Assembly: GCA_049643885.1 (NCBI GenBank)
Contig: JBARQV010000015.1
Coordinates: 11,430 to 75,429, forward strand
Source of the DNA: Candidatus Omnitrophota bacterium
GTDB lineage: Bacteria; Omnitrophota; Gorgyraeia; Tantalellales; Tantalellaceae
DNA: 64,000 nt
Direction: 5' to 3'
Made by a program: the position numbers and the translations under genes. Below are positions 2,095 to 30,782 of this stretch, in pieces. Within the stretch, counting starts at the first letter, position 1; the number at the start of each line of letters is the position of its first letter. The notes beneath the pieces were generated by a model. It did no database searches. It had not been told where the DNA came from and worked only from the letters and a program-made list of their open reading frames with translations.

Positions 2095-2146
2095 CCCCAC
2101 ACTTCCGTGCGGGGGAATGGATACTACAGGCGGAAGCCCGTAGAGG
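2095..2146 (+). repeat. Double-hairpin intergenic repeat, copy 1 (CCCCACACTTCCGTGcGGGG-N-CTACAGGCGGAAGCCcGTAGAGG)
   Basis: Starts immediately after the stop of the upstream GT2. Slightly degenerate: one A.C mismatch in each stem. The terminal TAGAGG lies 5 nt before the ATG at 2152. Confidence 0.85.
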
Positions 2147-2151
2147 TAGTT

Positions 2152-2562
2152 ATGCGTAAGCAAAAAATCCTAAAACTTGTTTTTGTGGTATGGATCGCGC
2201 TTTGGGTGTTGTTCCTTGTCCGGGAAGACAAGGACGGACAGTACGGCGCGCTAAAATATCTCTATACACATAGCGGGGAGGACCGGACCCGTTTTATCAT
2301 CGGCGAGCCTCTTTACGGGTTCTTGCTTTATTGCAGGGAAAACATCCCGATGGGATCAAGCTACCAGCTGCTGGGTTTCAAGAAGTTTTCCATAGATGAA
2401 GTAAGGGCCAGGTATTTTCTGTGGCCGCTGGTAAGTGTTCCCGAAGATCCGGATTTCAAGGTCGTTTACGGCAAGGGAGTATCTTCAGCCCTGGGGTATA
2501 AGGAATACGGCCGGTACGGTGAAGCGGGCTGTTTATTGATAAGGAAGGACCTCGTGAAATGA
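2152..2562 (+). CDS. Hypothetical protein with a single N-terminal TM anchor
   Basis: ATG at 2152 follows the repeat's AGAGG (MRKQKILKLVFVVWIALWVLFLV...). The ORF track's GTG start at 2107 would lie inside the repeat hairpin. Confidence 0.6.
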   Translation: MRKQKILKLVFVVWIALWVLFLVREDKDGQYGALKYLYTHSGEDRTRFIIGEPLYGFLLYCRENIPMGSSYQLLGFKKFSIDEVRARYFLWPLVSVPEDPDFKVVYGKGVSSALGYKEYGRYGEAGCLLIRKDLVK

Positions 2563-3953
2563 GTTTCGCTCTTTCTCTTTTATCGATCGAGATAGTCGGC
2601 ATGTTCTTCATATTCCTGGCGGTCAGGCCTAGCCGGCAGGAATATTCCTGCCTTGAATTTGTCTGCCTGTCATTCCTTGTGGGGATGGCTTTTACGTCAT
2701 ATCAACTATTCCTGTATTATGTCCTCGGGATAGATTTCAACCTGCTGAACATCCTCATCGTTCCGGGAATACTGCTCCTTATTATTTTTTCCCGCTATGC
2801 TTCGAAACCGGAAAGGCTAAAGGAGTTTCTCCCCGCGGTCGGTTACCGTTTGAAATGGGATCTTACTAAACGGTTCCTGGCGGCCGGCATCCTGGTGCAG
2901 ATCTTGTGGGTGCTCTTCCTGGTGATACCCACGCCGGTGTATTCCCATGACGCGGTAGCCAACTACGCGCTCAAGGCCAAGATCTTTTATTTCCTCGGCG
3001 GCGTGCCGGAAGGTTTTTTCAACTGGAGCGAATCCACGGTAGCGCACCCCGATTATCCGCTTCTCTTGCCTTTTCTGATGACATGGATATACGCCTTCAC
3101 GGGTTTCAACGACCTGGTGGTGAACTTGGTCATGCCGGTCATCTATCTTAGCTTCCTGGGGCTGTTTTATTCCCAGGCAAAAAAGATCTTTTCCGGGGCT
3201 TACGCGCTGCTTCTGACGTTTTTTATCGCTACCGTGCCGCAGGTCGCCGATTACGCTACGGTTATCCACGCGGACCTGATTTTGACGGCGGTGGTCACAG
3301 GGGCCTTTTTGTATTTTTTCCTCTATATCCGGAATATGAGCAAAGTGGACCTAGTGCTGTCGTCTATTTTGATCGGCTCTTCATTATGGGTCAAGAACGA
3401 GGCGATCGTTTTCGCCGGAGCCTTACTGGCGGTATTCGCTGCCTTTGTGCTTAGATCCGGCCCGGCCGATAAAAGACGCTTGATTTCGGGTCTGTTTCTG
3501 TTTATCATTATCGCGGCCGTTATTTCAGCTCCCTGGCTCGCGACTAAAGCGTTAAATCACGCGGCGAACAGTGATATTGATATTTCCAGGATGACACCGG
3601 ACCGGTTATTGCAAAATGTTAAAGATATTCCGGTCCTGCTTAATCTTTTCCAGCAGGAAGTATTCGGTCCGAAGAAATGGAATATTCTCTGGATGATCCT
3701 TCTGGCTGCCGTTATCTGGAAAAGGAAAGACGTCTGGCGGGGCGAAAATTTTTACACGACACTTTTCATCATCCTTGCGGCCTCGGGCTATTTTGCCGGA
3801 TACATGGCAACTACGGGAAATAACCTGTATTTCTATGTCAATACTACGATCTCCAGGTTCATGCTGCATTTTTCGGGTTTGGCGCTTTTTCTCACTGCCA
3901 GCCTGATCTACGGCGATGTCAGAGAGGTACCAAGCTTTAAAGAAGGGAGCTGA
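2559..3953 (+). CDS. Polytopic integral membrane protein, possibly a GT-C type glycosyltransferase or polymerase of the glycan cluster
   Basis: 464 aa with at least 11 hydrophobic segments. ATGA overlap with the upstream gene. Function inferred from context only. Confidence 0.5.
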   Translation: MSFALSLLSIEIVGMFFIFLAVRPSRQEYSCLEFVCLSFLVGMAFTSYQLFLYYVLGIDFNLLNILIVPGILLLIIFSRYASKPERLKEFLPAVGYRLKWDLTKRFLAAGILVQILWVLFLVIPTPVYSHDAVANYALKAKIFYFLGGVPEGFFNWSESTVAHPDYPLLLPFLMTWIYAFTGFNDLVVNLVMPVIYLSFLGLFYSQAKKIFSGAYALLLTFFIATVPQVADYATVIHADLILTAVVTGAFLYFFLYIRNMSKVDLVLSSILIGSSLWVKNEAIVFAGALLAVFAAFVLRSGPADKRRLISGLFLFIIIAAVISAPWLATKALNHAANSDIDISRMTPDRLLQNVKDIPVLLNLFQQEVFGPKKWNILWMILLAAVIWKRKDVWRGENFYTTLFIILAASGYFAGYMATTGNNLYFYVNTTISRFMLHFSGLALFLTASLIYGDVREVPSFKEGS

Positions 3954-4517
3954 ATGAGCGAAGAATACGTCTTTATCGACAGGGACGGTGTCATAAACAA
4001 GGACCCGGGAGGCTGGACCGAATACGGTTACGTGACCAGGTGGGAAGACTTTCATTTCCTGCCGGGCACTCTTGAAGCCCTTAAGGCGCTTAAGGGCGCC
4101 GGGTACAAGGCCGTGATAATCTCCAATCAGCAAGGGGTGGGAAAAGGTTATTTTACGGAAGCGGCCCTGAAGGATATCACCGGTAAAATGGTAAGTACAA
4201 TAAAGGGATCAGGGGGAGAGGTAGCCGGTGTTTTTTATTGCATCCATGCCAAAGAAGAAGATTGTGATTGCAGGAAACCCAAGGCCGGCCTGTTTCTTAA
4301 AGCCAAGGAAGAGCTTGGCATAGAAAGTTTCGAGAGTAATTTTTATATGGGGGATACGGAACGCGATATTCAGGCAGGCCGGGCAGCGGGACTCAAGACC
4401 ATCCTTGTCCTTTCGGGCAAGTCTTCCCGCCAGGATGCTGAAGGGTGGAGCCATAAGCCGGATCATATATGCGGCAGTATCGCTGAAGCGGTGAACATAG
4501 TGATAGGAGGAGAATGA
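3954..4517 (+). CDS. gmhB: D,D-heptose 1,7-bisphosphate phosphatase (HAD family)
   Basis: FIDRDGVIN motif I, ISNQQG, CDCRKPK (zinc-loop type) and GDTERD motif IV. Confidence 0.85.
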   Translation: MSEEYVFIDRDGVINKDPGGWTEYGYVTRWEDFHFLPGTLEALKALKGAGYKAVIISNQQGVGKGYFTEAALKDITGKMVSTIKGSGGEVAGVFYCIHAKEEDCDCRKPKAGLFLKAKEELGIESFESNFYMGDTERDIQAGRAAGLKTILVLSGKSSRQDAEGWSHKPDHICGSIAEAVNIVIGGE

Positions 4518-5644
4518 AAAAAGTCATTATAATATATTCCACGGCCGGTATGGGCCACAAAAAAGCGGCCTTGGCACTTTTGAAGACTTTCCGTGAAAAG
4601 GGGGAAGGTCTTATCGAGGTCAAGGCGATCGACCTCTTGGAATACTCGACCAGGTTTTACAAGTTTTTGTATATTACGTTCTATATTTTCGTTGTGCAGC
4701 GGGCTAAATGGTTCTGGAGTATGATGTATTATACTTCTAACCATCCAGCTATCGATATCCTTGTCCGGAAGATCCGGGAATGGCTGGATTCGAAAAGCCT
4801 GAAGATGCTGAGAGAGATGCTGGCAGAAGAAGCGCCGGACGCGATAGTCGCCACGCATTTTTTGCTGCCGGGCATAGCGAGCGCCCTTAAAGGGACGAAG
4901 GGTTTTAAGTCCATGATGTACGTCGTGGTGACCGATTACGGACCGCACAGTTACTGGCTTTCCGATCATATCGACGGTTATTTCGTGGGCGCGGAATACA
5001 CTTTACAGGAGATGGTCAAAAGGGGAGTGCCGGCCGGAAAGATCGTTGTCACCGGTATCCCTACCCAGGAAGAATTCAGCAGTGCCTTCAATACTGACGA
5101 AATGCGCGGAAAATATGACCTGGACAGGGAAAAGAAGACTGTATTTCTTTTGAGCGGGGGATTCGGTGTCGGTCCCATGGAAGGGATATTGCGTTCCCTG
5201 AATTCATGCCGCGCGGATATACAGGTGATCACGGTCTGCGGGCATAACAAGGACGCGTACCGGAAGATAGAGGCATTGAGGTCTGAGCTTAACTACCGGG
5301 TGATACTCTTCGGGTATACGGAAAAAATAGCAGAGCTTATGTCCGTGTCGGACCTTATGGTGACAAAAGCCGGGGGGATAAGCGTGACGGAAGCCATGAA
5401 CATGCGTCTGCCTATGGTCCTTTTCGCTTCAATACCCGGGCAGGAAACGTGGAATGAGATACTCCTGACCAGGAACGGTGCTGCTGAAAAGGCGAGGAGA
5501 GTCGAAGACATACCGGTCATGGCAGACAGGATCCTTTTATCCGGAGAAGTCCTGAACAGCATAAAATCCGGTATCGACAAGATCCGCCGGCCGGATGCCG
5601 CGGAAAAAGTCACTGATATCGTCATGGATAGAATAAGGGAGTAA
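4514..5644 (+). CDS. GT28-family diacylglycerol glycosyltransferase (MGDG synthase / UgtP-like)
   Basis: N-terminal IIYSTAGMGHKKAA and G-loop SGGFGVG, in the MGDG_synth plus glycosyltransferase-28 C-terminal architecture. ATGA overlap with gmhB. Confidence 0.75.
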   Translation: MKKVIIIYSTAGMGHKKAALALLKTFREKGEGLIEVKAIDLLEYSTRFYKFLYITFYIFVVQRAKWFWSMMYYTSNHPAIDILVRKIREWLDSKSLKMLREMLAEEAPDAIVATHFLLPGIASALKGTKGFKSMMYVVVTDYGPHSYWLSDHIDGYFVGAEYTLQEMVKRGVPAGKIVVTGIPTQEEFSSAFNTDEMRGKYDLDREKKTVFLLSGGFGVGPMEGILRSLNSCRADIQVITVCGHNKDAYRKIEALRSELNYRVILFGYTEKIAELMSVSDLMVTKAGGISVTEAMNMRLPMVLFASIPGQETWNEILLTRNGAAEKARRVEDIPVMADRILLSGEVLNSIKSGIDKIRRPDAAEKVTDIVMDRIRE

Positions 5645-5648
5645 AAAA

Positions 5649-6320
5649 ATGGATGACCTTTACGAAGGTATTAAGAACATTATTGAGTCCGAAAGACTGG
5701 CCGGAGTGGAAGAGATATGTCTTTCCGGGTCCGCAAAAAAACAGGAGACCTTTGAGGGGCTTAAAAAGGCGGTTCTCGAATGTCATCGCTGTCCGCTGGC
5801 TCATACCCGGACTAATGTGGTTTTCGGTGAAGGAAACCCCAGGGCCAAACTTATGTTCATAGGAGAGGCTCCGGGTGGCGATGAAGATAAACAGGGCAGG
5901 CCTTTTGTCGGACGGGCCGGGCAATTGTTGACAAAGATAATTGAATCCATAGGGCTTAAAAGAGAAGATGTATATATAGCGAATATTCTCAAGTGCCGTC
6001 CTCCCGGGAACAGAAATCCTCTACCGAGCGAGATCGCCACGTGTGTTACGTATCTTGAGAAACAGATCGAATTCATAAAACCCGGGATAATATGCGCGCT
6101 CGGTAAGTTCGCCGCCCAGACCCTTTTGAATACCGAGACCCCTATCAGCAGATTGCGCGGGAAGTTCCACGAGTACCGGGGCATCAAACTGATGCCTACT
6201 TATCATCCCGCGTATCTGTTGCGGAATCCCGGGGGCAAGAGAGAAGTATGGGAGGACATGAAAAAGGTGGCTAAAGAGTTAGGTCTTGAAATGCCTCCAA
6301 AAAGAGGGGTAAAGGGGTAA
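5649..6320 (+). CDS. Uracil-DNA glycosylase, family 4
   Basis: GEAPGGDEDKQGRPFVGRAGQLL and ANILKCRPPGNRNP motifs; C-x2-C near the N-terminus. Confidence 0.9.
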   Translation: MDDLYEGIKNIIESERLAGVEEICLSGSAKKQETFEGLKKAVLECHRCPLAHTRTNVVFGEGNPRAKLMFIGEAPGGDEDKQGRPFVGRAGQLLTKIIESIGLKREDVYIANILKCRPPGNRNPLPSEIATCVTYLEKQIEFIKPGIICALGKFAAQTLLNTETPISRLRGKFHEYRGIKLMPTYHPAYLLRNPGGKREVWEDMKKVAKELGLEMPPKRGVKG

Positions 6321-6325
6321 GGGGC

Positions 6326-6646
6326 ATGGATAAAAGAGAATTCATCCGCGAATTCATCACGTCCGATATCAAGTTGTATGATACGGAAGGGGATTTCATT
6401 TGCAAGGTAAATACTTATGATATTTCCGCGGGCGGCGTGCTGCTGGTTTCCAGCGGCCTTGAGTTCGAAAAGTTCGATACGGGTGACGAAGTGAATTTCA
6501 TCCTGACGATCCCGACCGGGGAAGTATCGGGTACGGCGGAAGTAATATGGGTGGACGAAGAAGAGTACAGGATGGGGCTGAAGTTCAAGAAGATACTCAA
6601 GGGCGCGTCCAACCTCATGGCGTTCATCGCCAACGGATTCTTTTAG
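6326..6646 (+). CDS. Standalone PilZ-domain (c-di-GMP binding) protein
   Basis: REFIR (RxxxR) and DISAGG (DxSxxG) motifs in a 106-aa protein. Confidence 0.75.
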   Translation: MDKREFIREFITSDIKLYDTEGDFICKVNTYDISAGGVLLVSSGLEFEKFDTGDEVNFILTIPTGEVSGTAEVIWVDEEEYRMGLKFKKILKGASNLMAFIANGFF

Positions 6647-6694
6647 TGTATAACATGTATAATTGGAATGTTTTGTGCGGGACTGTGAATTTGT

Positions 6695-6840: not shown

Positions 6841-6867
6841 AAAAAAGCGACCAACGACAGACGAATC

Positions 6868-8868: not shown

Positions 8869-8917
8869 TTGTCGGTCGTCGGTAGTCGGTGGTAAATTTA
8901 CGATATACGACCGACAA
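8869..8917. terminator. 10-bp stem hairpin (TTGTCGGTCG ... CGACCGACAA) after priA; its 3' arm is part of the recurring ACGACCGACAACCGAC motif
   Basis: The complementarity was read directly. No U-tract follows, so it may be a terminator, an attenuator or a processing site. Confidence 0.4.
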
Positions 8918-8941
8918 CCGACGAAATACGAGAGGTGCGAT

Positions 8942-17366: not shown

Positions 17367-18182
17367 ATGAACAAGCGACTCTTATTCGGGGTAATGATAG
17401 TAGTGGTGATGGCGCTGGTCGCGGGCCTCGCGCCTTTTATCGCTACCCATGACCCCCTGGAGATGGACCTTTCGCCGGAAGCGAGGCTCCATGCCCCTTC
17501 CGTCGGGCATCTTTTCGGGACAGACAGCCTGGGCCGCGACGTGTTCAGCCGGATGGTCTACGGGACGCGTATATCTTTAAGCGTCGGGTTCATCGCCGTT
17601 TTCATATCCCTGGTCATAGGCATTTTTCTTGGGGGATTGAGCGGTTATTACGGGAAATGGGTAGATACCGTTATCATGCGGCTTGTCGAGATCATGTATT
17701 GTTTCCCAACGTTTTTTCTGATAATGATGGTCATCACTTTCCTGGGGCCGAGTGTCATCAACGTGATGGTCGTTATCGGGATAACCAGCTGGGCGGGTCT
17801 GTGCAGACTTGTCCGCGCGGAATTTTTGACGCTCAGGGAAAGGGATTTCGTGCATTCGGCAAGGGTCCAGGGTGTTTCGGATATGCGTATCATATTCAGG
17901 CATATTCTTCCCAATGCCATGGCCCCGGTATACGTGAGCGCCACTCTTAGTGTAGGCGCGGCGATACTGGTCGAGAGCGCGCTGTCTTTTCTGGGTCTGG
18001 GTGTGCAGATACCCACTCCGAGTTGGGGGAATATCCTTGCCAACGGGAAAAATTATATAGATTACGCCTGGTGGCTTACTCTTTTCCCCGGCCTGGCGAT
18101 ACTTGTGACCGTTCTGAGCTTTAATTTGATAGGCGAAAGCATGAGAGAAAGGCTGGACCCAAGGCTCAGGGAGAGGAAATAA
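17367..18182 (+). CDS. oppC: Peptide ABC transporter permease
   Basis: N-terminal TM and a BPD_transp_1 domain. The ATG at 17367 is preferred over the track's upstream start. Confidence 0.9.
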   Translation: MNKRLLFGVMIVVVMALVAGLAPFIATHDPLEMDLSPEARLHAPSVGHLFGTDSLGRDVFSRMVYGTRISLSVGFIAVFISLVIGIFLGGLSGYYGKWVDTVIMRLVEIMYCFPTFFLIMMVITFLGPSVINVMVVIGITSWAGLCRLVRAEFLTLRERDFVHSARVQGVSDMRIIFRHILPNAMAPVYVSATLSVGAAILVESALSFLGLGVQIPTPSWGNILANGKNYIDYAWWLTLFPGLAILVTVLSFNLIGESMRERLDPRLRERK

Positions 18183-18183
18183 C

Positions 18184-18232
18184 CCCACACTTCCGTGTGG
18201 GGAATTGATACTACAGGCGGTAGCCTGTAGAG
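18184..18232 (+). repeat. Double-hairpin intergenic repeat, copy 2
   Basis: CCCCACACTTCCGTGTGGGGAATTGATACTACAGGCGGTAGCCTGTAGAGG. Its 3' AGAGG is 6 nt upstream of the oppD ATG. Confidence 0.9.
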
Positions 18233-18238
18233 GAGAAA

Positions 18239-19039
18239 ATGGATAACTTACTTGAGGTAAAGAATCTGACAATAAGTTTCGGCGGCAAAAAGGCCGTCGA
18301 CAACGTCAGTTTTTCTCTTCACCCCGGCCAGATAATGGCTCTTGTGGGTGAATCGGGAAGCGGGAAGACCATAACCGCCCTTGCGTTACTGGGGCTCCTT
18401 CCCGGGGCTGCGGTCCGGGAAAAGGGAGATGTGATCTTCAGGGGCAAGAACATATTTGACGTCGGCGCGGATAAGATGCGGCAGATAAGAGGGAAAGATA
18501 TCGCCATGGTATTCCAGGAACCCTTTACTTCTCTCAATCCCGTTATCAGGACGGGTGAGCAGATATCTGAGACGATACTCGCTCATCGCGGCAGTCTTGC
18601 AAAGACAGTGAGCATAGAAGAAAAGATGCGTGAACTTCTTTCGACGGTAAAACTTTCACCTGACGTGGTTTCGCTTTATCCTCACGAACTTTCCGGGGGG
18701 ATGAGGCAGAGGGTGATGCTGGCCATGGCCTTGAGCTGCGACCCGGAAGTCCTCATACTCGACGAACCCACGACGGCGCTGGACGTTTCCATACAAAAAC
18801 ATATTCTTGATCTCATCAAGACCATACAGCGTGAAAGAGGACTTACCATACTTTTCATAACCCATGATTTTTCAGTAGTCAATATGATAGCAGACAGGGT
18901 GTGCGTTATGAACCGGGGAAAAGTAATGGAATACGGGGAAAAGGACGAGGTTTTACACGATCCCAAGGACGGGTATACCCGTCATCTTATCGATTGTATA
19001 CCAAGATCAGGGGATAAACGGGAAAGGTTGCCTGCGTGA
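18239..19039 (+). CDS. oppD: Peptide ABC transporter ATP-binding protein
   Basis: Walker A GESGSGKT, signature LSGGMRQR, Walker B ILDEPTTALD. Confidence 0.9.
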   Translation: MDNLLEVKNLTISFGGKKAVDNVSFSLHPGQIMALVGESGSGKTITALALLGLLPGAAVREKGDVIFRGKNIFDVGADKMRQIRGKDIAMVFQEPFTSLNPVIRTGEQISETILAHRGSLAKTVSIEEKMRELLSTVKLSPDVVSLYPHELSGGMRQRVMLAMALSCDPEVLILDEPTTALDVSIQKHILDLIKTIQRERGLTILFITHDFSVVNMIADRVCVMNRGKVMEYGEKDEVLHDPKDGYTRHLIDCIPRSGDKRERLPA

Positions 19040-19844: not shown

Positions 19845-20197
19845 GCGAAAACAATAAAATCCTTCCCAACCTAAAATTTGGAAATGGGTCCCTTTGATCT
19901 TATTGTTTTTGCAATGCCGATTCCGCAGAATAACTAGGCGTTGTATGCAATGCAACGCCTAGTCAGGAAAGGGTAAATATCTATGATGGCGAATGCATGC
20001 CTGACGGACCATTACAAAAATTCAGCTTTTCCGGATATTTTAAGCTGAGGTTATCATGGCTATATACAATGCGTAGGCATGGCAACTGTCCGAGCCCCGA
20101 GCATTCCTGTAGCGAGGGGCGAGTTTTGCCATGTCAGCTTGAAATGCCCGGAAAAGCGTTAAGAATTTTTGTCGGGACGGAAGGCATGCATTCGCCG
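19845..20197 (+). repeat. Composite structured repeat, copy A: short palindromic arm module (19845-19912) plus ~210-bp core (about 19990-20197) bounded by inverted termini GGCGAATGCATGCC / GGCATGCATTCGCC
   Basis: About 88% identity to copies B and C. The ORF track's 68-aa ORF inside it is not conserved in copy B. Confidence 0.85.
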
Positions 20198-20285
20198 TTA
20201 TAGACATTTAACATAAGCAACGGGAAAAATGATGTCGCCGATAGAACAGCTCAAACTTCCGCTGGTCTTTGCGGTTTAAAAGGCG

Positions 20286-20338: not shown

Positions 20339-21619
20339 ATGGGATATACGATAACGGAAAAGATCCTGCTTTCGCACGCGATCGGGGTCAAAGGGATCGC
20401 CCCGGGCGATTTCATAAGAACCAGGGTCGACATGTGCCTTGGGAACGATATCACCAGCCCCATCGCTATAAAAGAATTTTGCGAGCTGGGGGTGGATAAG
20501 GTTTTTAACCAGAACAAGATAGCTCTGGTGCCGGACCATTTCGTACCCGCCAAGGACATGAAAAGCGCTAACCAGGCCGCGTCTCTCAAAAAATTCGCGC
20601 AAAAATACGGTATCACTAATTATTTCGAAGTCGGGCGAATGGGTATTGAACACGTCTTACTGCCTGAAAGAGGGCTTGTCCTTCCTGGCGCTCTCATCAT
20701 AGGGGCTGATTCCCATACTTGCACCCATGGTGCGCTTGGCGCTTTCGCCACGGGTGTGGGAAGCACGGACCTTGCCTACGCCATGGCATTTGGAGAATGC
20801 TGGTTCAGGGTCCCCGAGACGATAAAGATCGTCTTCACGGGAAAGCCCAGGAAATGGGTCGGCGGCAAGGACTTGATACTGCACGTAATATCCGATATCG
20901 GTGTCTCCGGCGCCCTTTACAAGACCCTGGAGTTTACGGGCGATACCATTTCTGAGCTTTCCATGGATGACCGGTTCTCTATCTGCAATATGGCAATTGA
21001 AGCCGGGGCGAAGAACGGAATAGTCGAACCGGACAAAACGACTGAAAGATACGTCAAGACGGCGGTAAGAAAATATAAGCCCCCGCGTAAATCGTTTAAA
21101 ATGATAAAAAGCGATAAAGATGCCGTGTATGCCGACGTCAGGGAATATAATGTTTCCAAACTTGAACCGGTAGTTGCCAAGCCCCATCTGCCGTCAAACG
21201 GTGTTCCGGTAAGTACACTGAAGGATGTCAAAGTAGATCAGGTATTCATCGGATCATGCACCAACGGGAGGATCTCGGACCTCAAAACCGCGGCGTCCAT
21301 TCTTAAGAACAGAAAGGTCCATCCCCAGACGCGTTTGATCGTGATACCGGCCACGCAAGCGATCTACATGGAAGCTGTGAGGGAAGGGTATGTAGATGTA
21401 TTTATCCGCGCCGGAGGGGTCTTCTGCACGCCGACCTGCGGGCCGTGTTTGGGTGGTCACATGGGGATCCTGTCCGAGGGAGAGGTCGCGGTAGCGACTA
21501 CGAACCGCAATTTTGTCGGACGGATGGGACATCCGAAAAGTTTTGTTTATCTGTCCAACCCGGCTATCGCGGCCGCGAGCGCGGTCAAGGGAAAGATAGC
21601 GCATCCGTCGGATCTGTGA
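20339..21619 (+). CDS. leuC: 3-isopropylmalate dehydratase large subunit (aconitase family)
   Basis: Aconitase-family Cys ligands (GSCTNGR, CGPCLG) in the archaeal-type short LeuC architecture. Confidence 0.85.
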   Translation: MGYTITEKILLSHAIGVKGIAPGDFIRTRVDMCLGNDITSPIAIKEFCELGVDKVFNQNKIALVPDHFVPAKDMKSANQAASLKKFAQKYGITNYFEVGRMGIEHVLLPERGLVLPGALIIGADSHTCTHGALGAFATGVGSTDLAYAMAFGECWFRVPETIKIVFTGKPRKWVGGKDLILHVISDIGVSGALYKTLEFTGDTISELSMDDRFSICNMAIEAGAKNGIVEPDKTTERYVKTAVRKYKPPRKSFKMIKSDKDAVYADVREYNVSKLEPVVAKPHLPSNGVPVSTLKDVKVDQVFIGSCTNGRISDLKTAASILKNRKVHPQTRLIVIPATQAIYMEAVREGYVDVFIRAGGVFCTPTCGPCLGGHMGILSEGEVAVATTNRNFVGRMGHPKSFVYLSNPAIAAASAVKGKIAHPSDL

Positions 21620-21669
21620 CCCCACACTTCCGTGTGGGGAATGATACTACAGGCGGAAGCCTGTAGAGG
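21620..21669 (+). repeat. Double-hairpin intergenic repeat, copy 3
   Basis: CCCCACACTTCCGTGTGGGGAATGATACTACAGGCGGAAGCCTGTAGAGG sits between leuC and leuD. A second AGAGG follows before the ATG. Confidence 0.9.
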
Positions 21670-21684
21670 AAAAAGAGGAAAAAC

Positions 21685-22281
21685 ATGAAACTCAAAGGCA
21701 AAATCCATAAGTTCGGTAATAACATAAACACTGATGAGATAATTCCCGCCCGTTATCTCAATACTTGTGATCCGGGTGAACTGGCGAAACACTGTATGGA
21801 AGACGCTGCCCCGCAATTCGCTAAAAACGTCCAGGAAGGGGATATAATCGTCGCGGGCGAAAATTTCGGATGCGGTTCCAGCCGGGAGCACGCACCGATC
21901 GCCATAAAAGCTTCCGGGGTTTCCTGTGTAGTGGCCAAAAGTTTCGCCAGGATATTTTACAGGAACGCCATTAATATCGGCCTTCCGATCTTCACGAGTC
22001 CGGAAGCCGTGAAGGACCTGAAAAACAACGACACGGCTGAAGTGGACGCCACCAAGGGGACTGTCACCAAATCCGGGAGAAAGAAAGCTTATGATGCGGA
22101 AGTGTTCCCTGAATTCATAAAAGAGATCATCAGGAGCGGAGGGTTGATGGCTTACGCGAAAAAGATGGGACCCGCGGAAGAGCCAAAACCCGTTAAAAGA
22201 AAGAAGAAAGCTGTGCAAAGAAAGAAGATCGTCAAAAGAAAGGCCAAAACTACCAAGAAGACAAAGAAGCACAAGAAATGA
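21685..22281 (+). CDS. leuD: 3-isopropylmalate dehydratase small subunit with a ~35-aa lysine-rich C-terminal tail
   Basis: LeuD core (GENFGCGSSREHAP) followed by the tail ...EEPKPVKRKKKAVQRKKIVKRKAKTTKKTKKHKK. Confidence 0.85.
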   Translation: MKLKGKIHKFGNNINTDEIIPARYLNTCDPGELAKHCMEDAAPQFAKNVQEGDIIVAGENFGCGSSREHAPIAIKASGVSCVVAKSFARIFYRNAINIGLPIFTSPEAVKDLKNNDTAEVDATKGTVTKSGRKKAYDAEVFPEFIKEIIRSGGLMAYAKKMGPAEEPKPVKRKKKAVQRKKIVKRKAKTTKKTKKHKK

Positions 22282-22283: not shown

Positions 22284-22369
22284 AATATGTCATCCCGGAC
22301 GGCCGAAAGGCCGATCCGAGATCAAATAATAATTTTTATGTGATCCCCGCTTTCGCGGGGATGACATAC
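22284..22369 (+). repeat. TIR element family 2, copy 1 (AATATGTCATCCCGG ... CCCCGCTTTCGCGGGGATGACATAC)
   Basis: Perfect outer inverted repeat ATGTCATCCC/GGGATGACAT with an inner hairpin. It lies between leuD and leuB. Confidence 0.8.
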
Positions 22370-24576: not shown

Positions 24577-24664
24577 TATGTCATCCCGGACGAGCCCGCA
24601 GGGATCGAGCCGGGACCACATAATATTTTTATTTGATCCCGGCTTTTACCGGGATGACATACAT
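24576..24664 (+). repeat. TIR element family 2, copy 2
   Basis: AATATGTCATCCCGGACGAGCC...GATCCCGGCTTTTACCGGGATGACATAC. The inner stem sequence differs from copy 1 (GCCGGG vs GCGGGG) but pairing is kept. The element ends at the truA start codon. Confidence 0.8.
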
Positions 24665-25983: not shown

Positions 25984-26012
25984 TTGACAAAAATCCCCAA
26001 ATATGTTAATTT
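25984..26012 (+). promoter_or_regulatory. Promoter TTGACA-N17-(TGt)TAATTT upstream of rplM
   Basis: Read directly. Extended -10 arrangement TGnTAATTT, as upstream of the Na/Pi transporter gene. Confidence 0.45.
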
Positions 26013-26065
26013 TACTCCTCTAAAAGTTAATGCTCTCGCTGTAAGTAGCGACATAGAGGAGAATT

Positions 26066-26497: not shown

Positions 26498-26515
26498 GGA
26501 AGAGGTATCCGTAAG

Positions 26516-26917
26516 ATGGTGGAGACAAAGCAGGCATATTTCGCAGCTACCGGGAGAAGAAAGGAATCCGTTGCTAGGGTCAGGATCAAGCCCGGGGACG
26601 GTAAGGTAAGAGTCAACAAGAGACAAATCGAGGATTATTTCCCCAGGGAGTCGCACCGGATCACAATAATGCAGCCCCTGAAGACGGTCGGAATGGTGGG
26701 AAAATTCGATCTTTACGCGAATCTTACCGGAGGCGGGTTGAGCGGCCAGGCGGGGGCTTTCAGGCACGGTATCGCCAGGGCTCTTCTTGAATACGACGAA
26801 AATCTACGGAGCACCTTGAAAAAAGCGGGTTTTCTAACGCGTGATCCAAGAGCCAAAGAAAGGAAGAAATACGGACAAAAACGGGCCAGAAAGCATTTCC
26901 AATTCTCAAAACGTTAA
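26516..26917 (+). CDS. rpsI: 30S ribosomal protein S9
   Basis: [12 protein letters not shown]...[19 protein letters not shown]...[17 protein letters not shown]. Confidence 0.95.
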
Positions 26918-26949
26918 ACACGAAATTACATTTTTTAACTTTAGTAGAA

Positions 26950-26978
26950 GGTCGCTTAAAAAGCGGCCTTTTTTATTT
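26950..26978 (+). terminator. Rho-independent terminator after rpsI
   Basis: GGTCGC-TTAAAAA-GCGGCC followed by TTTTTTATTT. Confidence 0.7.
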
Positions 26979-27015
26979 GAGGAGCACGCGACGGGATTAC
27001 CTTGCATCTTCTAGT

Positions 27016-27492
27016 TGCAAAAACAGTAAAATCTTTCCCAACCAAATTTTTTAACGGCATTTTTCTAACTTTCAAAGGGCGTAAAAGAAACTCGCCCCCG
27101 CTGCTTTGCTTTGCGAATCCAAGCGACGGGGGTTCAAACAACTTTTACGCTTTTTTCCTTCAAAAGTTAGAAAAATGCCTAAAATTTGTAAATGGGGCCC
27201 TTTAATTTTATTGTTTTTGCGAATAGATGAGCAGTTTCTTAACTATGATTATTTTCAAACACATGGCAAATGTCACCGCCGGCGAATATATGCCTGACGG
27301 ACCATTTCAAAAATTTAGTTTTTCCGGGCATTTTAAGCTGAAGTTGTCGTGGCTACTAAACATGTGTAGGCATGGCAAATGTCCGAGCCCCGAGTATTTC
27401 TATTAACGAGGGGCGAGTTTTGCCATGTCAGTTTAAAATGTCCCGAAAAGCGTTAAGAATTTTTGTCGGGCCGGAAGGCATATATCCGCCGG
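27016..27492 (+). repeat. Composite structured repeat, copy B: ~205-bp near-palindromic arm module (27016-27220) plus ~210-bp core (27283-27492) with inverted termini CCGGCGAATATATGCC / GGCATATATCCGCCGG
   Basis: Aligned by eye to copies A and C. The reading frame that is open in copy A is closed here by TAA. Confidence 0.85.
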
Positions 27493-27543
27493 TCTACTGT
27501 CACGCGACTTATGTTCGCTTCGCTTCATAAGTTACGGTTTCAC

Positions 27544-27573
27544 TTGACAGGGTAGGGCTGTTTACTTTATACT
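27544..27573 (+). promoter_or_regulatory. Promoter TTGACA-N18-TATACT upstream of argC
   Basis: Read directly. About 50 nt upstream of the start codon. Confidence 0.5.
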
Positions 27574-27626
27574 CTGTTCTTATATTAATTTTGCCCGTAA
27601 AGTAATATATTAATACATAAGGAGAA

Positions 27627-28643
27627 ATGATGATAAAAGTCGGAGTAGTGGGAGCGACAGGGTATACCGGCGAAGAACTGGTAGACACTCTTTTAAGAAA
27701 TCCCGGTGTGGAGATCACTTCCTTGACGGCTCTTGTGGAGAAAGAGGCAGAGTTTTCCGAGCTGTATCCGAAGTTCGGAAAAAAGATCTCGATAGTCTGC
27801 AAAAATCTCGATATGGAAGAGGTTTCCGCGAAAAGTGACCTGGTTTTTCTGGCCCTTCCTCACACGGTTTCCATGAAATTCGCGCCGGAGTTCCTTAAAA
27901 AGGGGAAGAAGGTCATAGACTTGAGCGCTGATTATCGCCTGCCGTGCGATATTTATGAAAAATGGTACAAGGCGAAGCACGCGGATAAGGAAAACCTTTC
28001 GCAGGCTGTTTACGGTCTGCCGGAGATGAACCGTGAGAAGATCAAAAAAGCCGGACTGGTAGCGAATCCGGGCTGCTATCCGACGAGTGTTATTCTGGCC
28101 CTTTTGCCGATCATAAAGGCCGTCCGTGAATCCGGACAACCCATCGTGGTGGACTCAAAGAGCGGGGCGACCGGCGCCGGGAGAAAGGCATCCGTGTTTT
28201 TATCGTTCGGTGAGGTGGATGAGAATCTAAAGTGCTACAAGGCCAACGAGCACCAGCACATGCCGGAGATGGACCACGTGTTGAGTGAAGCCGCCGGAGG
28301 GGAAGTCCGGGTGAACTTTACACCGCATCTTCTGCCGGTGAGGAGGGGAATATTGTCGACGATCTATATCCCCGATAAGGGCCTCCCGTCCACGGGCGAG
28401 ATATTACGGATGTATAACGATTATTACAAAGACGAGCCATTTGTGCGTGTCCATGATTCCGGGTACATGCCCCAGCTCCTGGACGTGGCGGGGACTAATT
28501 TCTGCGATATCGGGATAAAGTCTGCCAGAGGGCTCTTGATCATAGTTTCCGTTATAGATAATCTCCTGAAAGGGGCAAGCGGGCAGGCCGTCCAGAACAT
28601 GAATATCATGCTGGGGGAGGAAGAAACAGCGGGTCTTTTATGA
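27627..28643 (+). CDS. argC: N-acetyl-gamma-glutamyl-phosphate reductase
   Basis: VGVVGATGYTGEEL; NPGCYPTS active-site cysteine. Confidence 0.9.
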   Translation: MMIKVGVVGATGYTGEELVDTLLRNPGVEITSLTALVEKEAEFSELYPKFGKKISIVCKNLDMEEVSAKSDLVFLALPHTVSMKFAPEFLKKGKKVIDLSADYRLPCDIYEKWYKAKHADKENLSQAVYGLPEMNREKIKKAGLVANPGCYPTSVILALLPIIKAVRESGQPIVVDSKSGATGAGRKASVFLSFGEVDENLKCYKANEHQHMPEMDHVLSEAAGGEVRVNFTPHLLPVRRGILSTIYIPDKGLPSTGEILRMYNDYYKDEPFVRVHDSGYMPQLLDVAGTNFCDIGIKSARGLLIIVSVIDNLLKGASGQAVQNMNIMLGEEETAGLL

Positions 28644-29830
28644 AGAAGCATATTTTACCCAAAGGATTTCTTGCGGGCGGGATCCACTGCGGATTAAAAA
28701 GGAAGCGGAAGGATCTTTCGCTTTTTTATTCGGGCAGCCCCTGCAAGGCTGCGGCGGTCTTTACCACGAATCTCGCCATGGCCGCGCCTGTCATCCTGGG
28801 GCGGGAGAAAATAGAAAAAGACAGCCACGCGCAGGCGGTGATAGTCAATAGCGGCAACGCTAATTGCATGACCGGTAAGCGCGGCATCGCGGACGCAAAA
28901 AAAATGGCCAAAGCTACGGCTCGCCAGTTGGATATCCCGGAAAACATGGTGCTGGTCTCGTCTACCGGGGGCATCGGGAAGTTTCTTTCCATGGGCCCGA
29001 TCCTCAAGGGATTACCACGCCTGGTTTCAGGGTTGTCCCAGGACGGTATCGCCGATGCGGCAGAAGGGATAATGACCACGGACCGGTTCCCGAAGATCGC
29101 GTCGCGGACTTTCAAGGTGAAAGGCAAAAAAGTGACTGTTACGGGAGTGGCCAAAGGAGCGGGGATGATCAACCCCAACATGGCCACGATGCTCTCTTAT
29201 GTATTGACCGATATCAACATAACTTCCGGCGCGCTTAATCTGGCGCTGCGGGAAAGTTGTGATGTATCTTTTAACGCGATCACCGTGGACGGGGAGATGA
29301 GTACCAATGATACTGTAATGCTTCTCGCGAACGGGGAAGCCGGGAACACGATAGTTACCGAGGCTGATGCCGCTTTCAAGCGTTTTCGGAAGAACCTGGA
29401 CATCGTTACGAAGGAACTCGCGGGCATGATCGTTCGGGACGGGGAAGGAGCCAGCAAGTTCATAGAGGTCCATGTCAAGGGGGCCAGGAGCAAGGCTGAC
29501 GCCAAAATAGCCGCCGGGTCTATAGCCAATTCGATACTGGTCAAATGCGCGGTCCAGGGAGGCGACCCCAACTGGGGACGAGTGGCTTCTTCGGTAGGCG
29601 CCAGCGGCGCGGTTTTTGACCCGGGCAAGCTGGAAATAATCCTGGACGGCGTGGCATTTTTTAAACGGGGCAGGAACGCCTCTCCGGGAAAACGGAAAAA
29701 AGCGGAAGTGTTCAAGAAAAAAGATGTTAAAATAGAGGTCAATCTGCATTCCGGCAGATCCGAGACGGTCATGTATACCTGTGATATATCGAAGAAGTAT
29801 ATAACCTTAAACTCGTATTATACGACTTAA
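28640..29830 (+). CDS. argJ: Bifunctional glutamate N-acetyltransferase / ornithine acetyltransferase
   Basis: Autocleavage site ATMLSYVLTD. ATGA overlap with argC. Confidence 0.9.
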   Translation: MKKHILPKGFLAGGIHCGLKRKRKDLSLFYSGSPCKAAAVFTTNLAMAAPVILGREKIEKDSHAQAVIVNSGNANCMTGKRGIADAKKMAKATARQLDIPENMVLVSSTGGIGKFLSMGPILKGLPRLVSGLSQDGIADAAEGIMTTDRFPKIASRTFKVKGKKVTVTGVAKGAGMINPNMATMLSYVLTDINITSGALNLALRESCDVSFNAITVDGEMSTNDTVMLLANGEAGNTIVTEADAAFKRFRKNLDIVTKELAGMIVRDGEGASKFIEVHVKGARSKADAKIAAGSIANSILVKCAVQGGDPNWGRVASSVGASGAVFDPGKLEIILDGVAFFKRGRNASPGKRKKAEVFKKKDVKIEVNLHSGRSETVMYTCDISKKYITLNSYYTT

Positions 29831-29865
29831 ATAAGGGATAAGCGTTAAGCGGTAAGGGGTAGGAG

Positions 29866-30723
29866 ATGGAAGAAGCGATAAAAAAGAGCCAGGTGCTGAT
29901 AGAGGCGCTGCCGTATATCAAGAAGTTTTTCAACAAGGTAGTGGTCATAAAGTACGGCGGAAATTCTCTCGAGAACAAGGATGTCCGTGAAATGGTGCTC
30001 CAGGATATCGTGTTCATGCGTTACGCGGGCATGAAACCTGTCCTGGTGCATGGCGGCGGGCCGCATATAACGGAGAAGCTGAAAGAAGCCGGCATCGAAC
30101 CTAAATTCATCGGGGGCTTGAGGGTCACGAGCAAGGAATCGATGGGGGTGATCGATTCGGTCCTCATGGAAGTGAATAAAGACCTGGTAGACGAGATCAA
30201 CGGTTTTGGAGGAGAAGCGTTCGGGCTCAGCGGGAAAGAGAACAACATGATCCAGGCTTTACCGGCCAAGGGGAAGGAAGATCTGGGATATGTAGGCAGC
30301 GTCAAGGCTATAAATACCACGATCCTGGAAAGGCTGATCAACACCAACATGATCCCGGTCGTGTGCCCGGTCGGTAAAGGCGGCGATAACGAGCTTTACA
30401 ACATAAACGCCGATGAAGCCGCCAGCAATATCGCAGTGGCGCTGAGTGCGGAAAAGTTCGTTATTTTAACGAACGTGCGCGGTGTAATGAAGGACAAGGA
30501 AGATCCTGGATCGTTGTTCCATTCTTTGACCTTTAAGGCCACGAACCATCTTATAGAAACCGGAGTGATAGACGGAGGCATGCTGCCCAAGACCATGGCG
30601 TGCTTGGGAGCTCTTGAAAGAGGAGTGCGCAAGGCCCACATAGTCGAGGCCGACCTCCCTCACGCGCTTCTTCTGGAGATTTTCACCGATAAAGGTATCG
30701 GGACAGAGATAATCAAAGAGTAA
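29866..30723 (+). CDS. argB: Acetylglutamate kinase
   Basis: VIKYGGNSL; VHGGGP. Confidence 0.9.
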   Translation: MEEAIKKSQVLIEALPYIKKFFNKVVVIKYGGNSLENKDVREMVLQDIVFMRYAGMKPVLVHGGGPHITEKLKEAGIEPKFIGGLRVTSKESMGVIDSVLMEVNKDLVDEINGFGGEAFGLSGKENNMIQALPAKGKEDLGYVGSVKAINTTILERLINTNMIPVVCPVGKGGDNELYNINADEAASNIAVALSAEKFVILTNVRGVMKDKEDPGSLFHSLTFKATNHLIETGVIDGGMLPKTMACLGALERGVRKAHIVEADLPHALLLEIFTDKGIGTEIIKE

Positions 30724-30730
30724 CGTAACA

Positions 30731-30782
30731 CCCCACACTTCCGTGTGGGGAATGATACTATACAGGCGGAAGCCTGTAGAGG
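30731..30782 (+). repeat. Double-hairpin intergenic repeat, copy 4
   Basis: CCCCACACTTCCGTGTGGGGAATGATACTATACAGGCGGAAGCCTGTAGAGG. The AGAGG is 6 nt upstream of the argD ATG. Confidence 0.9.

What the first reader, a model, noticed from the sequence alone, without database searches (positions are those of the whole stretch)
2095..30782. Double-hairpin intergenic repeat (4 copies) that provides the ribosome-binding site of the downstream gene
A ~50-nt element, CCCCACAC-TTCC-GTGTGGGG AATGATA CTACAGGC-GGAA-GCCTGTAG AGG, occurs at 2095-2146, 18184-18232, 21620-21669 and 30731-30782. All copies are on the + strand, each starts within 1-7 nt of the upstream stop codon and ends 5-15 nt before the next start codon. 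The pairs of genes it separates are functionally coupled operon neighbours: GT2 and a membrane protein, oppC and oppD, leuC and leuD, argB and argD. It folds into two 8-bp GC-rich stems with complementary tetraloops (UUCC and GGAA), which could form a kissing or pseudoknot interaction. In copies 2 and 4 the terminal AGAGG is the only purine-rich Shine-Dalgarno candidate at the correct spacing. Copy 3 has a second AGAGG between the repeat and the ATG. This looks like a REP-like element that acts as an operon-internal RNA module, possibly an mRNA stabiliser or processing site plus translational coupler. I do not recognise it as a described motif.
Basis: seen in the sequence. Interest (0 to 1): 0.78.

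Follow-up and report, generated by a model that had tools for sequence, protein, structure and literature searches.

The report
Dispersed double-hairpin repeat carrying a ribosome-binding site
The four ~50-base double hairpins are real copies of a repeat resembling the repetitive extragenic palindromes (REPs) of other bacteria; it has inserted between neighbouring genes in an uncultured Omnitrophota bacterium, and its purine-rich end now serves as the ribosome-binding site for most of the downstream genes, but close relatives lack it, so it is an unusual variant of a known kind of selfish repeat rather than a new regulatory RNA.

Summary
There are exactly four copies in 64 kb. All lie on the + strand, each filling the spacer between a stop codon and the next start codon.

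The element is A-HP1(CCCCACAC-N4-GTGTGGGG)-AAT(G)...(G)GATA-HP2(GNRA loop)-AGG. The same module occurs in many MAGs labelled Omnitrophota or Planctomycetia, and in metagenomes. In those copies the HP2 stem covaries (22 stem variants, 98% paired). In 40 of 45 evaluable copies the module sits 6-37 nt upstream of a same-strand start codon.

It is not gene-specific: the downstream genes hit 59 Pfam families, none in more than two genes. It is not conserved at orthologous sites. Six syntenic relatives have 8-16 nt leuC-leuD spacers with their own Shine-Dalgarno (SD) sequence. Other relatives carry unrelated repeats at the same junctions.

HP2 is a diverged inverted copy of HP1. That explains the complementary loops without a kissing interaction.

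Best reading: a REP/REPIN-like dispersed element whose AG(A)GG tail has been co-opted as the SD in copies 1, 2 and 4. No transposase partner was found, and no RNA-level function has been shown. Rfam and the literature searched hold nothing matching. I rate it a new variant of a known kind, of moderate interest.

The parts
2095..2114 (+). Copy 1, hairpin 1 (CCCCACAC-TTCC-GTGCGGGG). It abuts the TAA stop of the GT2 gene (991-2094). One A.C mismatch.
2124..2146 (+). Copy 1, hairpin 2 (CTACAGGC-GGAA-GCCCGTAG) plus the AGG tail. The ATG of the 136-aa ORF is at 2152. AGAGGT is the only SD-like sequence.
18183..18202 (+). Copy 2, hairpin 1. It abuts the TAA stop of the oppC-like permease gene (ends at 18182).
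18211..18233 (+). Copy 2, hairpin 2 (loop GGTA) plus the AGG tail. The oppD-like ATG is at 18239. AGAGGAG is the only SD.
21620..21639 (+). Copy 3, hairpin 1. It abuts the TGA stop of leuC (ends at 21619).
21647..21669 (+). Copy 3, hairpin 2 plus the AGG tail. A native AAGAGGA SD follows at 21673-21679, and the leuD ATG is at 21685.
30731..30750 (+). Copy 4, hairpin 1. It lies 7 nt after the TAA stop of argB (ends at 30723).
30760..30782 (+). Copy 4, hairpin 2 (ATACAGGC-GGAA-GCCTGTAG) plus the AGG tail. The argD ATG is at 30789. AGAGGTGA is the only SD.

Best explanation
The four copies belong to a dispersed, non-coding double-hairpin repeat family of the REP/BIME/REPIN kind. The family is present in Candidatus Omnitrophota and in MAGs labelled Planctomycetia.

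The unit is A-HP1-AAT(G)-variable spacer-(G)GATA-HP2-AG(G). HP2 descends from an inverted copy of an HP1-type hairpin and has since drifted by compensatory stem changes. That descent is why the two tetraloops are complementary.

Copies arise as discrete ~50-nt insertions into the short spacers between co-directional genes, typically right after the stop codon. An insertion there pushes any SD in the tail of the upstream gene about 50 nt away from the downstream start. Copies therefore persist almost only in the orientation that places the purine-rich AG(A)GG tail 5-15 nt before the ATG. That tail is then used as the SD.

Shown here:
- Family membership and discrete boundaries.
- Filled versus empty orthologous sites.
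- Orientation and start-codon proximity.
- Covariation in the HP2 stem.
- The tail being the sole SD candidate in three copies.

Inferred:
- The spreading mechanism. By analogy this would be a Y1 (RAYT / IS200-like) transposase acting on single-stranded hairpins, but no such gene was found.
- That the orientation bias results from selection.
- That ribosomes actually use the tail.
For: 1. Discrete repeat. Conservation starts at A/CCCC and stops at AGG, and the flanks are unrelated. There are 4 copies in the window and none weaker.

2. Family. An HP1-anchored scan of one genome per species found 81 stretches, and a metagenome scan found more than 120. Together they yield 48 modules with the same architecture: A before HP1 in 44/48, AATG after HP1 in 29/48, GATA before HP2 in 40/48, and an AG tail in 32/48 (AGG in 23).

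3. The HP2 stem shows compensatory changes at 6 of 8 pairs, with 97.9% of cells paired and 0/500 shuffles reaching the observed score.

4. HP2 consensus is specific to each genome. It is CTACAGGC in all 4 window copies (ATACAGGC in copy 4), mostly CTACACGC in MAG JBDRKO01, and CCACACGC in PFGP01.

5. Insertion polymorphism. At leuC-leuD the window reads TGA+[50 nt]+AAAAAGAGGAAAAACATG. Six syntenic relatives (LeuD 71-78% identical) have 8-16 nt spacers with their own SD and no element. One of them comes from the same sample. The outgroup L099 (56% identical) carries a variant element at the same junction, which implies independent insertion.

6. Other relatives hold unrelated repeats at the same junctions.

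7. Generic context. The 38 downstream genes hit 59 Pfam families, none in more than 2 genes.

8. Orientation and position. 40/45 modules have a same-strand ORF start 6-37 nt downstream (median about 10), against 8/45 on the other strand.

9. The AG(G) tail follows HP2 even where HP1, not a start codon, comes next (L050, L066, L073). The tail is therefore part of the unit.

10. There is a graded series from HP1-like HP2 stems (CCCCATAC, CCACACAC) to the window's CTACAGGC. The L084 type folds as one long REPIN-like hairpin (-36.7 kcal/mol). The window type does not (-29.7 for two hairpins against -15.8 extended).

11. The organism otherwise uses ordinary GGAGG/AGGAG SDs.
Against: - No RAYT or Y1 transposase was found in the window or in any Omnitrophota or Planctomycetia locus held. 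The only hit is in a Blastocatellia contig, 2.1 kb from an HP1-type array and not adjacent to it.
- No target-site duplication or conserved target motif was seen. Only a preceding A is conserved.
[quoted passage not shown] REPINs are randomly distributed in extragenic space (PMC3116915). This family is locked to start codons and to one orientation, which could instead reflect a selected function.
- HP1 was fixed by the search pattern, so its conservation and the family's true breadth were sampled in a biased way.
- Only 64 kb of the host genome was available.
- In the window, gene direction and probable replication direction (GC skew +0.12) are confounded.
Confidence: 0.6

Rival explanations
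1. A selected operon-internal RNA module ('operon punctuation'). HP1 at the stop codon would act as a 3' stabiliser or ribosome-pausing hairpin for the upstream cistron. The conserved single-stranded AAUG...GGAUA linker would be an endonuclease site. HP2 would be a 5' protective hairpin that presents its SD tail to the ribosome. The module could have a REP origin and still have been domesticated.
For: - Strong co-orientation with genes and tight start-codon proximity, even where the upstream spacer is long or there is no upstream ORF.
- Conserved single-stranded AATG and GATA motifs, and a GNRA loop in HP2.
- The SD and AUG are left unpaired at the foot of HP2.
- REPs within 15 nt of stop codons are reported to affect translation in E. 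coli (PMC12306157, citing earlier work).
- REPs between unidirectional ORFs are thought to act as RNA (PMC3733652).
Against: - Dispensable. Close syntenic relatives have compact junctions without the module.
- The same junctions hold unrelated repeats in other lineages.
- No sense-strand excess of G.U over A.C in stems (7 against 4). Copy 1 actually folds better on the antisense strand (-32.1 against -26.0).
- The module is pseudo-symmetric, with one GNRA-type loop on each strand.
- No transcript data are available.
Confidence: 0.25
2. A site for a trans-acting protein, for example a CsrA-like regulator binding GGA in the HP2 loop and GGA in the SD, or a Cas6-like or other hairpin-specific nuclease acting on HP1.
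For: - The HP2 loop is GGAA or GGGA in 32 of 48 modules and the tail contains GGA/AGG.
- The HP1 20-mer is identical in several unrelated repeat families across phyla. That would fit a conserved hairpin-binding partner.
Against: - About a third of HP2 loops lack GGA (GTAA, GTGA, GGTA, GGCA).
- No candidate protein was identified.
- The heterogeneity of the downstream genes argues against a specific regulon.
Confidence: 0.07
3. A kissing-loop or pseudoknot riboregulator, in which the UUCC loop of HP1 pairs with the GGAA loop of HP2.
For: - The loops are complementary in the window.
- Loop position 3 of HP1 tracks position 2 of HP2 (C-G 25, A-U 8, other 2 of 35).
Against: - The other variable position does not covary. 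6 of 7 sequences where loop 1 position 2 is not U break the pair, while HP2 stays GNRA.
- From established RNA structural knowledge, 4-nt loops, one of them a GNRA tetraloop, on hairpins 7-8 nt apart are sterically poor kissing partners.
- The tracking follows subfamily lines (TTCC/GGRA against TTAC/GTRA). It is expected if HP2 is an inverted copy of HP1.
- The spacer varies from 4 to 34 nt.
Confidence: 0.03
4. A gene-specific cis-regulator (riboswitch, attenuator, RNA thermometer) or an intrinsic terminator.
For: - The position in front of start codons.
- A weak resemblance to the ylbH leader (14.9 bits against a gathering score of 50).
Against: - No Rfam family matches.
- No T-run follows either hairpin on the sense strand.
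- The SD is not sequestered.
- The downstream genes are functionally unrelated.
Confidence: 0.02

Closest known systems
REP / BIME elements and GTAG-tagged REP dimers (E. coli, Pseudomonas, Stenotrophomonas SMAG; PVC examples in Opitutus terrae and Rhodopirellula baltica; PMC3733652)
   Same: - Short GC-rich stem-loops with 6-9 bp stems and 2-4 nt loops.
- High copy number and extragenic location.
- Mostly found between unidirectional ORFs.
- Consensus specific to each genome, with complementary stem variants.
- Frequent dimers of two units, and adjacency to stop codons.
- HP2 ends in GTAG or GTGG, the tag variants reported for the REP superfamily.
   Different: - The GTAG/GTGG here is base-paired inside the stem, not an unpaired tag. 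HP1 has no tag.
- The two units of the dimer have different flanks (A...AATG against GATA...AGG).
- The module is locked to one orientation and to the downstream start codon. [quoted passage not shown]
- It carries an SD-like tail.
- No RAYT has been linked to it.
REPINs (REP doublets forming hairpins; PMC3116915)
   Same: - Two related hairpins in inverted relationship, separated by a short spacer.
- Some subfamilies (L084 type) fold into a single long hairpin.
- A 'clover' two-hairpin alternative fold.
- Within-genome homogeneity and presence/absence between relatives.
   Different: - In the window copies HP2 has diverged, so the long hairpin is strongly disfavoured (-15.8 against -29.7 kcal/mol).
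- Distribution is not random in extragenic space.
- The partner transposase is unknown.
Co-transcribed MITE-like repeats that alter neighbouring gene expression (Neisseria Correia/NEMIS, enterobacterial ERIC, pneumococcal BOX/RUP). This comparison rests on my own knowledge and on PMC3184786 and PMC3049150, which appeared in search results but were not read.
   Same: - Small non-autonomous repeats inserted in operon spacers.
- Transcribed with the flanking genes.
- Can donate expression signals.
   Different: - Those elements are 100-150+ nt with terminal inverted repeats and usually target-site duplications.
- They donate promoters or RNase sites rather than an SD.
- No terminal inverted repeat or target-site duplication was seen here.

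Membership tests
REP (repetitive extragenic palindrome) | Short (20-40 nt) GC-rich imperfect palindrome, repeated and extragenic | tested here: met
   Two 20-nt hairpins per unit. There are 4 copies in 64 kb, all intergenic, and many copies in other MAGs.
REP (repetitive extragenic palindrome) | Unpaired terminal GTAG (or GTRG/CGTC) tag at one end (PMC3733652) | tested here: inconclusive
   The HP2 3' arm ends in GTAG or GTGG in most of the 48 modules, but those bases pair with CTAC/CCAC in the stem. HP1 has no such tag.
REP (repetitive extragenic palindrome) | Association with a RAYT (Y1 / IS200-like transposase) flanked by the repeats | tested here: inconclusive
   tblastn with E. coli RayT and with an acidobacterial RAYT against 1.3 Mb of held loci plus the window gave no hit in Omnitrophota or Planctomycetia loci. 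One PF01797 gene is present in Blastocatellia locus L004, but it is not adjacent to the repeats. Whole genomes could not be searched.
REP (repetitive extragenic palindrome) | Close to the upstream ORF's 3' end but at varying distance from the downstream ORF (PMC3733652) | tested here: not met
   40/45 modules lie 6-37 nt from a same-strand start, but only 30/45 lie within 40 nt of an upstream stop.
REPIN | Two REPs in inverted orientation that together form a long hairpin | tested here: inconclusive
   Met for the L084/L185-type subfamilies (-36.7 kcal/mol; -28.9 against -29.4). Not met for the window copies (-15.8 extended against -29.7 for two hairpins).
REPIN | Random distribution in extragenic space (PMC3116915) | tested here: not met
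   Orientation and start-codon proximity are strongly non-random.
MITE | Terminal inverted repeats and a target-site duplication | tested here: not met
   The filled and empty leuC-leuD sites show a clean 50-nt insertion with no duplicated flank. The ends (CCCCAC... and ...GTAGAGG) are not inverted repeats of each other.
Any Rfam RNA family | Score at or above the family's gathering threshold | tested here: not met
   There were no matches in the window or in 15 related loci other than tRNAs. The best sub-threshold hit is the ylbH leader at 14.9 bits against a threshold of 50.
Intrinsic terminator | GC-rich hairpin followed by a T-run on the sense strand | tested here: not met
   No + strand terminator-like site was found at copies 2, 3 or 4, the copies inside the two regions scanned. 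For copy 1, direct reading of the sequence shows no T-run after either hairpin.
Riboswitch / gene-specific leader | Association with functionally related downstream genes | tested here: not met
   59 Pfam families among 38 downstream genes, none in more than 2.

The most novel reading that the evidence does not exclude
A REP-derived cassette domesticated in Omnitrophota and Planctomycetota as a portable intercistronic unit. A stop-proximal hairpin would end or stabilise the upstream message. A conserved linker would be cleaved. A second hairpin would protect the new 5' end and present its own Shine-Dalgarno sequence. Gene pairs could then be uncoupled or re-tuned simply by gaining the ~50-nt module. 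The same 20-nt CCCCACAC-N4-GTGTGGGG hairpin is shared by unrelated repeat families in at least four phylum-level groups, which would then point to one widespread hairpin-recognising enzyme.
Probability: 0.2. Interest if true: 0.7.

Novelty: new variant of a known kind. Interest (0 to 1): 0.45.

Why it matters
If the reading is right, this is a natural case of a small selfish repeat that survives inside operons because it brings its own ribosome-binding site. That gives a concrete example of how mobile hairpins can rewire translation initiation without disrupting operons. It also explains part of the intergenic sequence in Omnitrophota, a phylum known almost entirely from metagenomes.

The start-codon-locked, single-orientation distribution differs from textbook REP/REPIN behaviour and can be tested directly with reporters. 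The cross-phylum identity of the 20-nt hairpin gives a handle for finding the enzyme that recognises it.

For annotation, the element marks true start codons and should not be mistaken for a regulatory RNA.

Tried and rejected
- Rfam at gathering and E-value thresholds on the window, on the element and on 15 related loci: nothing relevant.
- Kissing loops: rejected on the covariation pattern and on loop size.
- Terminator or attenuator: no T-run.
- Riboswitch or leader: the downstream genes are unrelated.
- RAYT search by tblastn with two queries against all held DNA: no hit in Omnitrophota or Planctomycetia loci. The one acidobacterial RAYT found is not flanked by the hairpins on the visible side.
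- Sense-strand G.U excess as evidence for RNA-level selection: 7 G.U against 4 A.C, uninformative.
- A small ORF starting at the AATG after HP1: the frame relative to HP2 changes with spacer length and the stops are inconsistent. I dropped it after reading the sequences.
- Stop codon as a strict insertion target: only A is conserved before HP1 (44/48). TAA occurs in 15/48 and is often not the real stop.
- CRISPR-like reading of the acidobacterial arrays: the 'spacers' are also repeated, so these are tandem repeats.
- Covariance-model search of 100 loci for modules with a variant HP1: none beyond the seeds.
- Literature search for the sequence itself and for Omnitrophota intergenic repeats: nothing.


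Full report
**Observation**

The four copies exist as described.

| Copy | Coordinates | Stop-to-HP1 gap (nt) | AGG-tail-to-ATG gap (nt) | Departure from the consensus |
|---|---|---|---|---|
| 1 | 2095-2146 | 0 | 5 | One T>C change in each stem, giving A.C mismatches |
| 3 | 21620-21669 | 0 | 15 | None |
| 4 | 30731-30782 | 7 | 6 | 2-nt longer spacer; A for C at the base of HP2 |

Each 20-nt hairpin occurs four times at up to 3 mismatches, only on the + strand, with 0.00 expected from shuffles. An alignment shows that conservation begins at A/CCCC and ends at AGG, and that the flanks are unrelated.

I built a covariance model from 35 family members and ran it unfiltered over both strands of the window. 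It returns exactly these four at 64-78 bits. The next unrelated hit scores 12 bits.

The flanking genes are GT2 and a small protein without a Pfam hit, an OppC-like permease and an ABC ATPase, LeuC and LeuD, and ArgB and ArgD. Each copy folds into the two predicted 8-bp hairpins, with z-scores of -2.1 to -4.3. AGAGG and AUG are unpaired in copies 1-3.

Essentially all long ORFs in the 64 kb are on the + strand, and GC skew is +0.12. Taken alone, 'all four on +' is therefore weak evidence.

**Where the window comes from**

LeuD of the window is found on a 164-kb metagenome scaffold. Its homologues are annotated Candidatus Omnitrophota.

**The family**

A scan of one genome per species for the HP1 20-mer gave 81 stretches.

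In MAGs labelled Omnitrophota and Planctomycetia, and in many metagenome contigs, the same module recurs. It reads: A, HP1, AAT(G), a spacer of 4-34 nt, (G)GATA, a second 8-bp hairpin with a GNRA loop, then AG(G) and a start codon.

Over 48 modules:

| Feature | Count |
|---|---|
| A precedes HP1 | 44/48 |
| AATG follows HP1 | 29/48 |
| GATA precedes HP2 | 40/48 |
| Tail is AGG | 23/48 |
| Tail begins with AG | 32/48 |
| Distinct HP2 stem variants | 22 |

On a 35-sequence alignment, the HP2 stem is paired in 97.9% of cells and shows compensatory changes at 6 of 8 pairs. No shuffle out of 500 reaches the observed covariation, and slid controls collapse to 30-57% paired.

HP1 cannot be judged this way, because it was fixed by the search pattern.

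The hairpin covariation shows that self-complementarity is maintained. It does not say whether this acts in RNA or in single-stranded DNA. Sense-strand G.U pairs (7) do not clearly exceed A.C pairs (4). Copy 1 folds better on the antisense strand.

**Why the loops are complementary**

HP1 loops are TNNC and HP2 loops are GNRA. TTCC goes with GGAA or GGGA. TTAC goes with GTAA or GTGA.

Only one of the two variable loop positions tracks its partner (C-G 25, A-U 8, other 2). The other breaks in six of the seven sequences where it departs from U.

HP2 stems form a graded series from nearly HP1-like (CCCCATAC, CCACACAC; one change) to the window's CTACAGGC (four changes). Because the stem is a palindrome, an inverted copy of HP1 is the same stem with the complementary loop.

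Energetics agree:

| Module type | Two hairpins (kcal/mol) | Single extended hairpin (kcal/mol) |
|---|---|---|
| L084 | not computed | -36.7 (this is the minimum-energy fold) |
| L185 | -29.4 | -28.9 |
| Window copy 3 | -29.7 | -15.8 |

The loop complementarity is therefore best read as a relic of an inverted-doublet (REPIN-like) origin, not a kissing interaction. From general RNA structural knowledge, two tetraloops on hairpins 7-8 nt apart would accommodate such an interaction poorly.

**Position and orientation**

Of 45 modules not at a locus end, 40 have an ORF of at least 80 aa starting 6-37 nt downstream on the same strand (median about 10). Only 8 have one on the opposite strand. A same-strand stop lies within 40 nt upstream in 30.

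The module stays close to the start even where the upstream spacer is long or there is no upstream ORF.

The AG(G) tail follows HP2 even when the next thing is another HP1 rather than a start codon (L050, L066, L073). The tail therefore belongs to the unit.

Where the tail is not AGG, a separate SD usually lies further downstream (L097, L190, L176).

The host uses ordinary GGAGG/AGGAG SDs elsewhere in the window. The element's AGAGG is the only candidate for copies 1, 2 and 4. Copy 3 retains a native AAGAGGA.

**Not a gene-specific regulator**

The 38 downstream genes hit 59 Pfam families, none in more than two genes. They include tRNA synthetases, ATP synthase subunits, ClpP, RuvC, FlgI and glycosyltransferases.

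There is no Rfam match. There is no sense-strand terminator signature.

**An insertion, not a conserved site**

Syntenic regions from relatives preserve the order gap-pgk-tpi-secG-opp-leuCDB-asd-truA...rplM-rpsI-argCJBD.

At leuC-leuD the window reads ...CTGTGA[50-nt element]AAAAAGAGGAAAAACATG. L205, L206, L207, L208, L209 and L210 read ...CTGTAA followed by 8-16 nt containing their own SD and then ATG. Their LeuD proteins are 71-78% identical to the window's. None of these loci contains the module anywhere. L208 comes from the same sample as the window's scaffold.

L205 also has 1-nt and 18-nt spacers at oppC-oppD and argB-argD.

L099 carries a variant module at leuC-leuD, but its LeuD is only 56-58% identical to all the others. 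Two independent insertions are more parsimonious than one ancient gain followed by many precise losses. L084 likewise carries a variant at oppC-oppD.

In L206 the same operon junctions hold an unrelated inverted-repeat element. In L204 they hold 7-mer tandem repeats and purine-rich repeats. These junctions are thus permissive spots, colonised by different repeats in different lineages.

Within a genome the HP2 consensus is homogeneous: CTACAGGC in the window, mostly CTACACGC in JBDRKO01, CCACACGC in PFGP01. That is what an amplifying repeat family would show.

**Mechanism**

Shown:
- A discrete, dispensable, multi-copy double hairpin.
- It is inserted next to stop codons and ends with an SD-like tail at correct spacing from the next start.

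Inferred:
1. It spreads like REPs or REPINs, through a Y1 transposase acting on single-stranded hairpins. No such gene was found in the held Omnitrophota or Planctomycetia DNA. The only PF01797 gene, in Blastocatellia locus L004, lies 2.1 kb from an HP1-type array and is not visibly flanked by it.
2. The orientation and start-proximity bias arises because an insertion at a compact junction separates the start codon from its former SD. Only copies that bring the AGG tail to the right place would then survive.
3. Ribosomes use that tail.

The main rival is that the module has been domesticated. In that view it would act as a stabiliser for the upstream message, a processing site, and a 5' hairpin with SD for the downstream one. 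The unusually strict placement and the conserved single-stranded AATG and GATA motifs keep this reading alive. The presence/absence data show only that the module is not required.

**Comparison with known systems**

The element shares the following with REP/BIME and GTAG-type REP dimers: size, GC-rich stems, tetraloops, extragenic location between unidirectional ORFs, genome-specific consensus with complementary variants, dimer organisation, and a GTAG/GTGG terminus on HP2. The GTGG variant is reported in the PVC bacterium Opitutus terrae (PMC3733652).

It shares the inverted-doublet origin with REPINs (PMC3116915).

It differs in these respects:
- The GTAG is paired inside the stem.
- The two units have different flanks.
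- It is start-codon-anchored and orientation-locked. [quoted passage not shown]
- It carries an SD.
- It has no identified RAYT.

No paper in the library contains its sequence. The Omnitrophota genome papers searched do not mention intergenic repeats.

**Verdict**

- It is a new variant of a known kind.
- Interest is moderate (0.45). Two features deserve follow-up: the start-locked orientation, and the cross-phylum identity of the 20-nt hairpin.

Noticed in passing
window 19870-20202 and 27178-27496: A two-copy repeat of about 330 nt, with a core of about 230 nt at roughly 88% identity. It lies in the long spacers upstream of leuC (563 nt) and argC (709 nt). It has no Rfam match and no convincing ORF. 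Relatives have spacers of only 100-220 nt at these positions, so it may be another inserted element or a shared leader or promoter region.
   Followed up: partly
window 22332-22369 and 24625-24662: A second hairpin repeat family, ATTTTTATKTG-ATCCCSGC-TTTY-RCSGGGAT-GACATAC, in the leuD-leuB and asd-truA spacers. Both copies are on the + strand. The stem difference between the two copies is compensatory.
   Followed up: no
window 8895-8931, 34107-34143, 46447-46483: A third intergenic repeat (AATTTACGATATACGACCGACAACCGACGAAATACGA, 70-89% identity). All three copies sit in spacers just upstream of start codons. A further 27-nt repeat lies at 44381 and 46481.
   Followed up: no
window 39241-39340 and 41027-41246: Two blocks (27 nt and 51 nt, 86-89% identical) repeated upstream of the ORFs that start at 39364 and 41237. 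This may be a duplicated leader. Rfam reports nothing.
   Followed up: no
L206 7758-7905, 10523-10716, 11760-11866, 18740-18890: A syntenic Omnitrophota relative carries an unrelated repeat at four operon junctions, often in tandem. Its sequence is ACTGAGGTTCTGGGGACACGTCTGTGTAGACG...CAGACGTGTCCCCAGAATATAT, with inverted arms.
   Followed up: partly
L204 9905-10000, 17473-17539, 18395-18542: Another relative has a GGGTATC/GAGTATC 7-mer tandem array at leuC-leuD. It has purine-rich GGAGC-type repeats at argJ-argB and argB-argD.
   Followed up: no
L005, L008, L013, L040, L052, L057, L059, L078 and other rumen Bacteroidales loci: The identical 20-mer CCCCACACTTCCGTGTGGGG is embedded in a conserved non-coding element of about 250 nt (roughly -190 to +100 around the hairpin). 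A second hairpin, GCCTC-TTCG-GAGGC, follows it. Rfam does not match. It may be an undescribed ncRNA or MITE.
   Followed up: partly
L107 1614-1851; L053; L004 3129-3334; other Acidobacteriota loci: Tandem arrays with a period of 70-73 nt. The unit is GTAGRWWGGACTTGAACSAT plus an HP1-type hairpin (loop TGCC or TTCC) plus GATT/AATT. In L004 a PF01797 (Y1 / RAYT-like) gene lies 2.1 kb away.
   Followed up: partly
L083, L085, L094, L109, L149 and about 40 other metagenome loci: A clearly REPIN-like family. It consists of CCCCACAC-TRAA-GTGTGGGG-AAT, a spacer, and then ATT-CCCCAKAC-TTYA-GTMTGGGG. There is also a fully palindromic singleton family, AATT-CCCCACAC-TTAA-GTGTGGGG-AATT (L102, L108, L115, L189, L198, L199).
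   Followed up: no
window 1-64000: All 57 called genes are on the + strand. GC skew is uniformly positive (+0.09 to +0.14) and AT skew is +0.09.
   Followed up: no
window 21685-22281: LeuD is 198 aa here and in a few relatives (196-210 aa), against about 162 aa in most Omnitrophota homologues (81% query coverage). This suggests a lineage-specific terminal extension.
   Followed up: no
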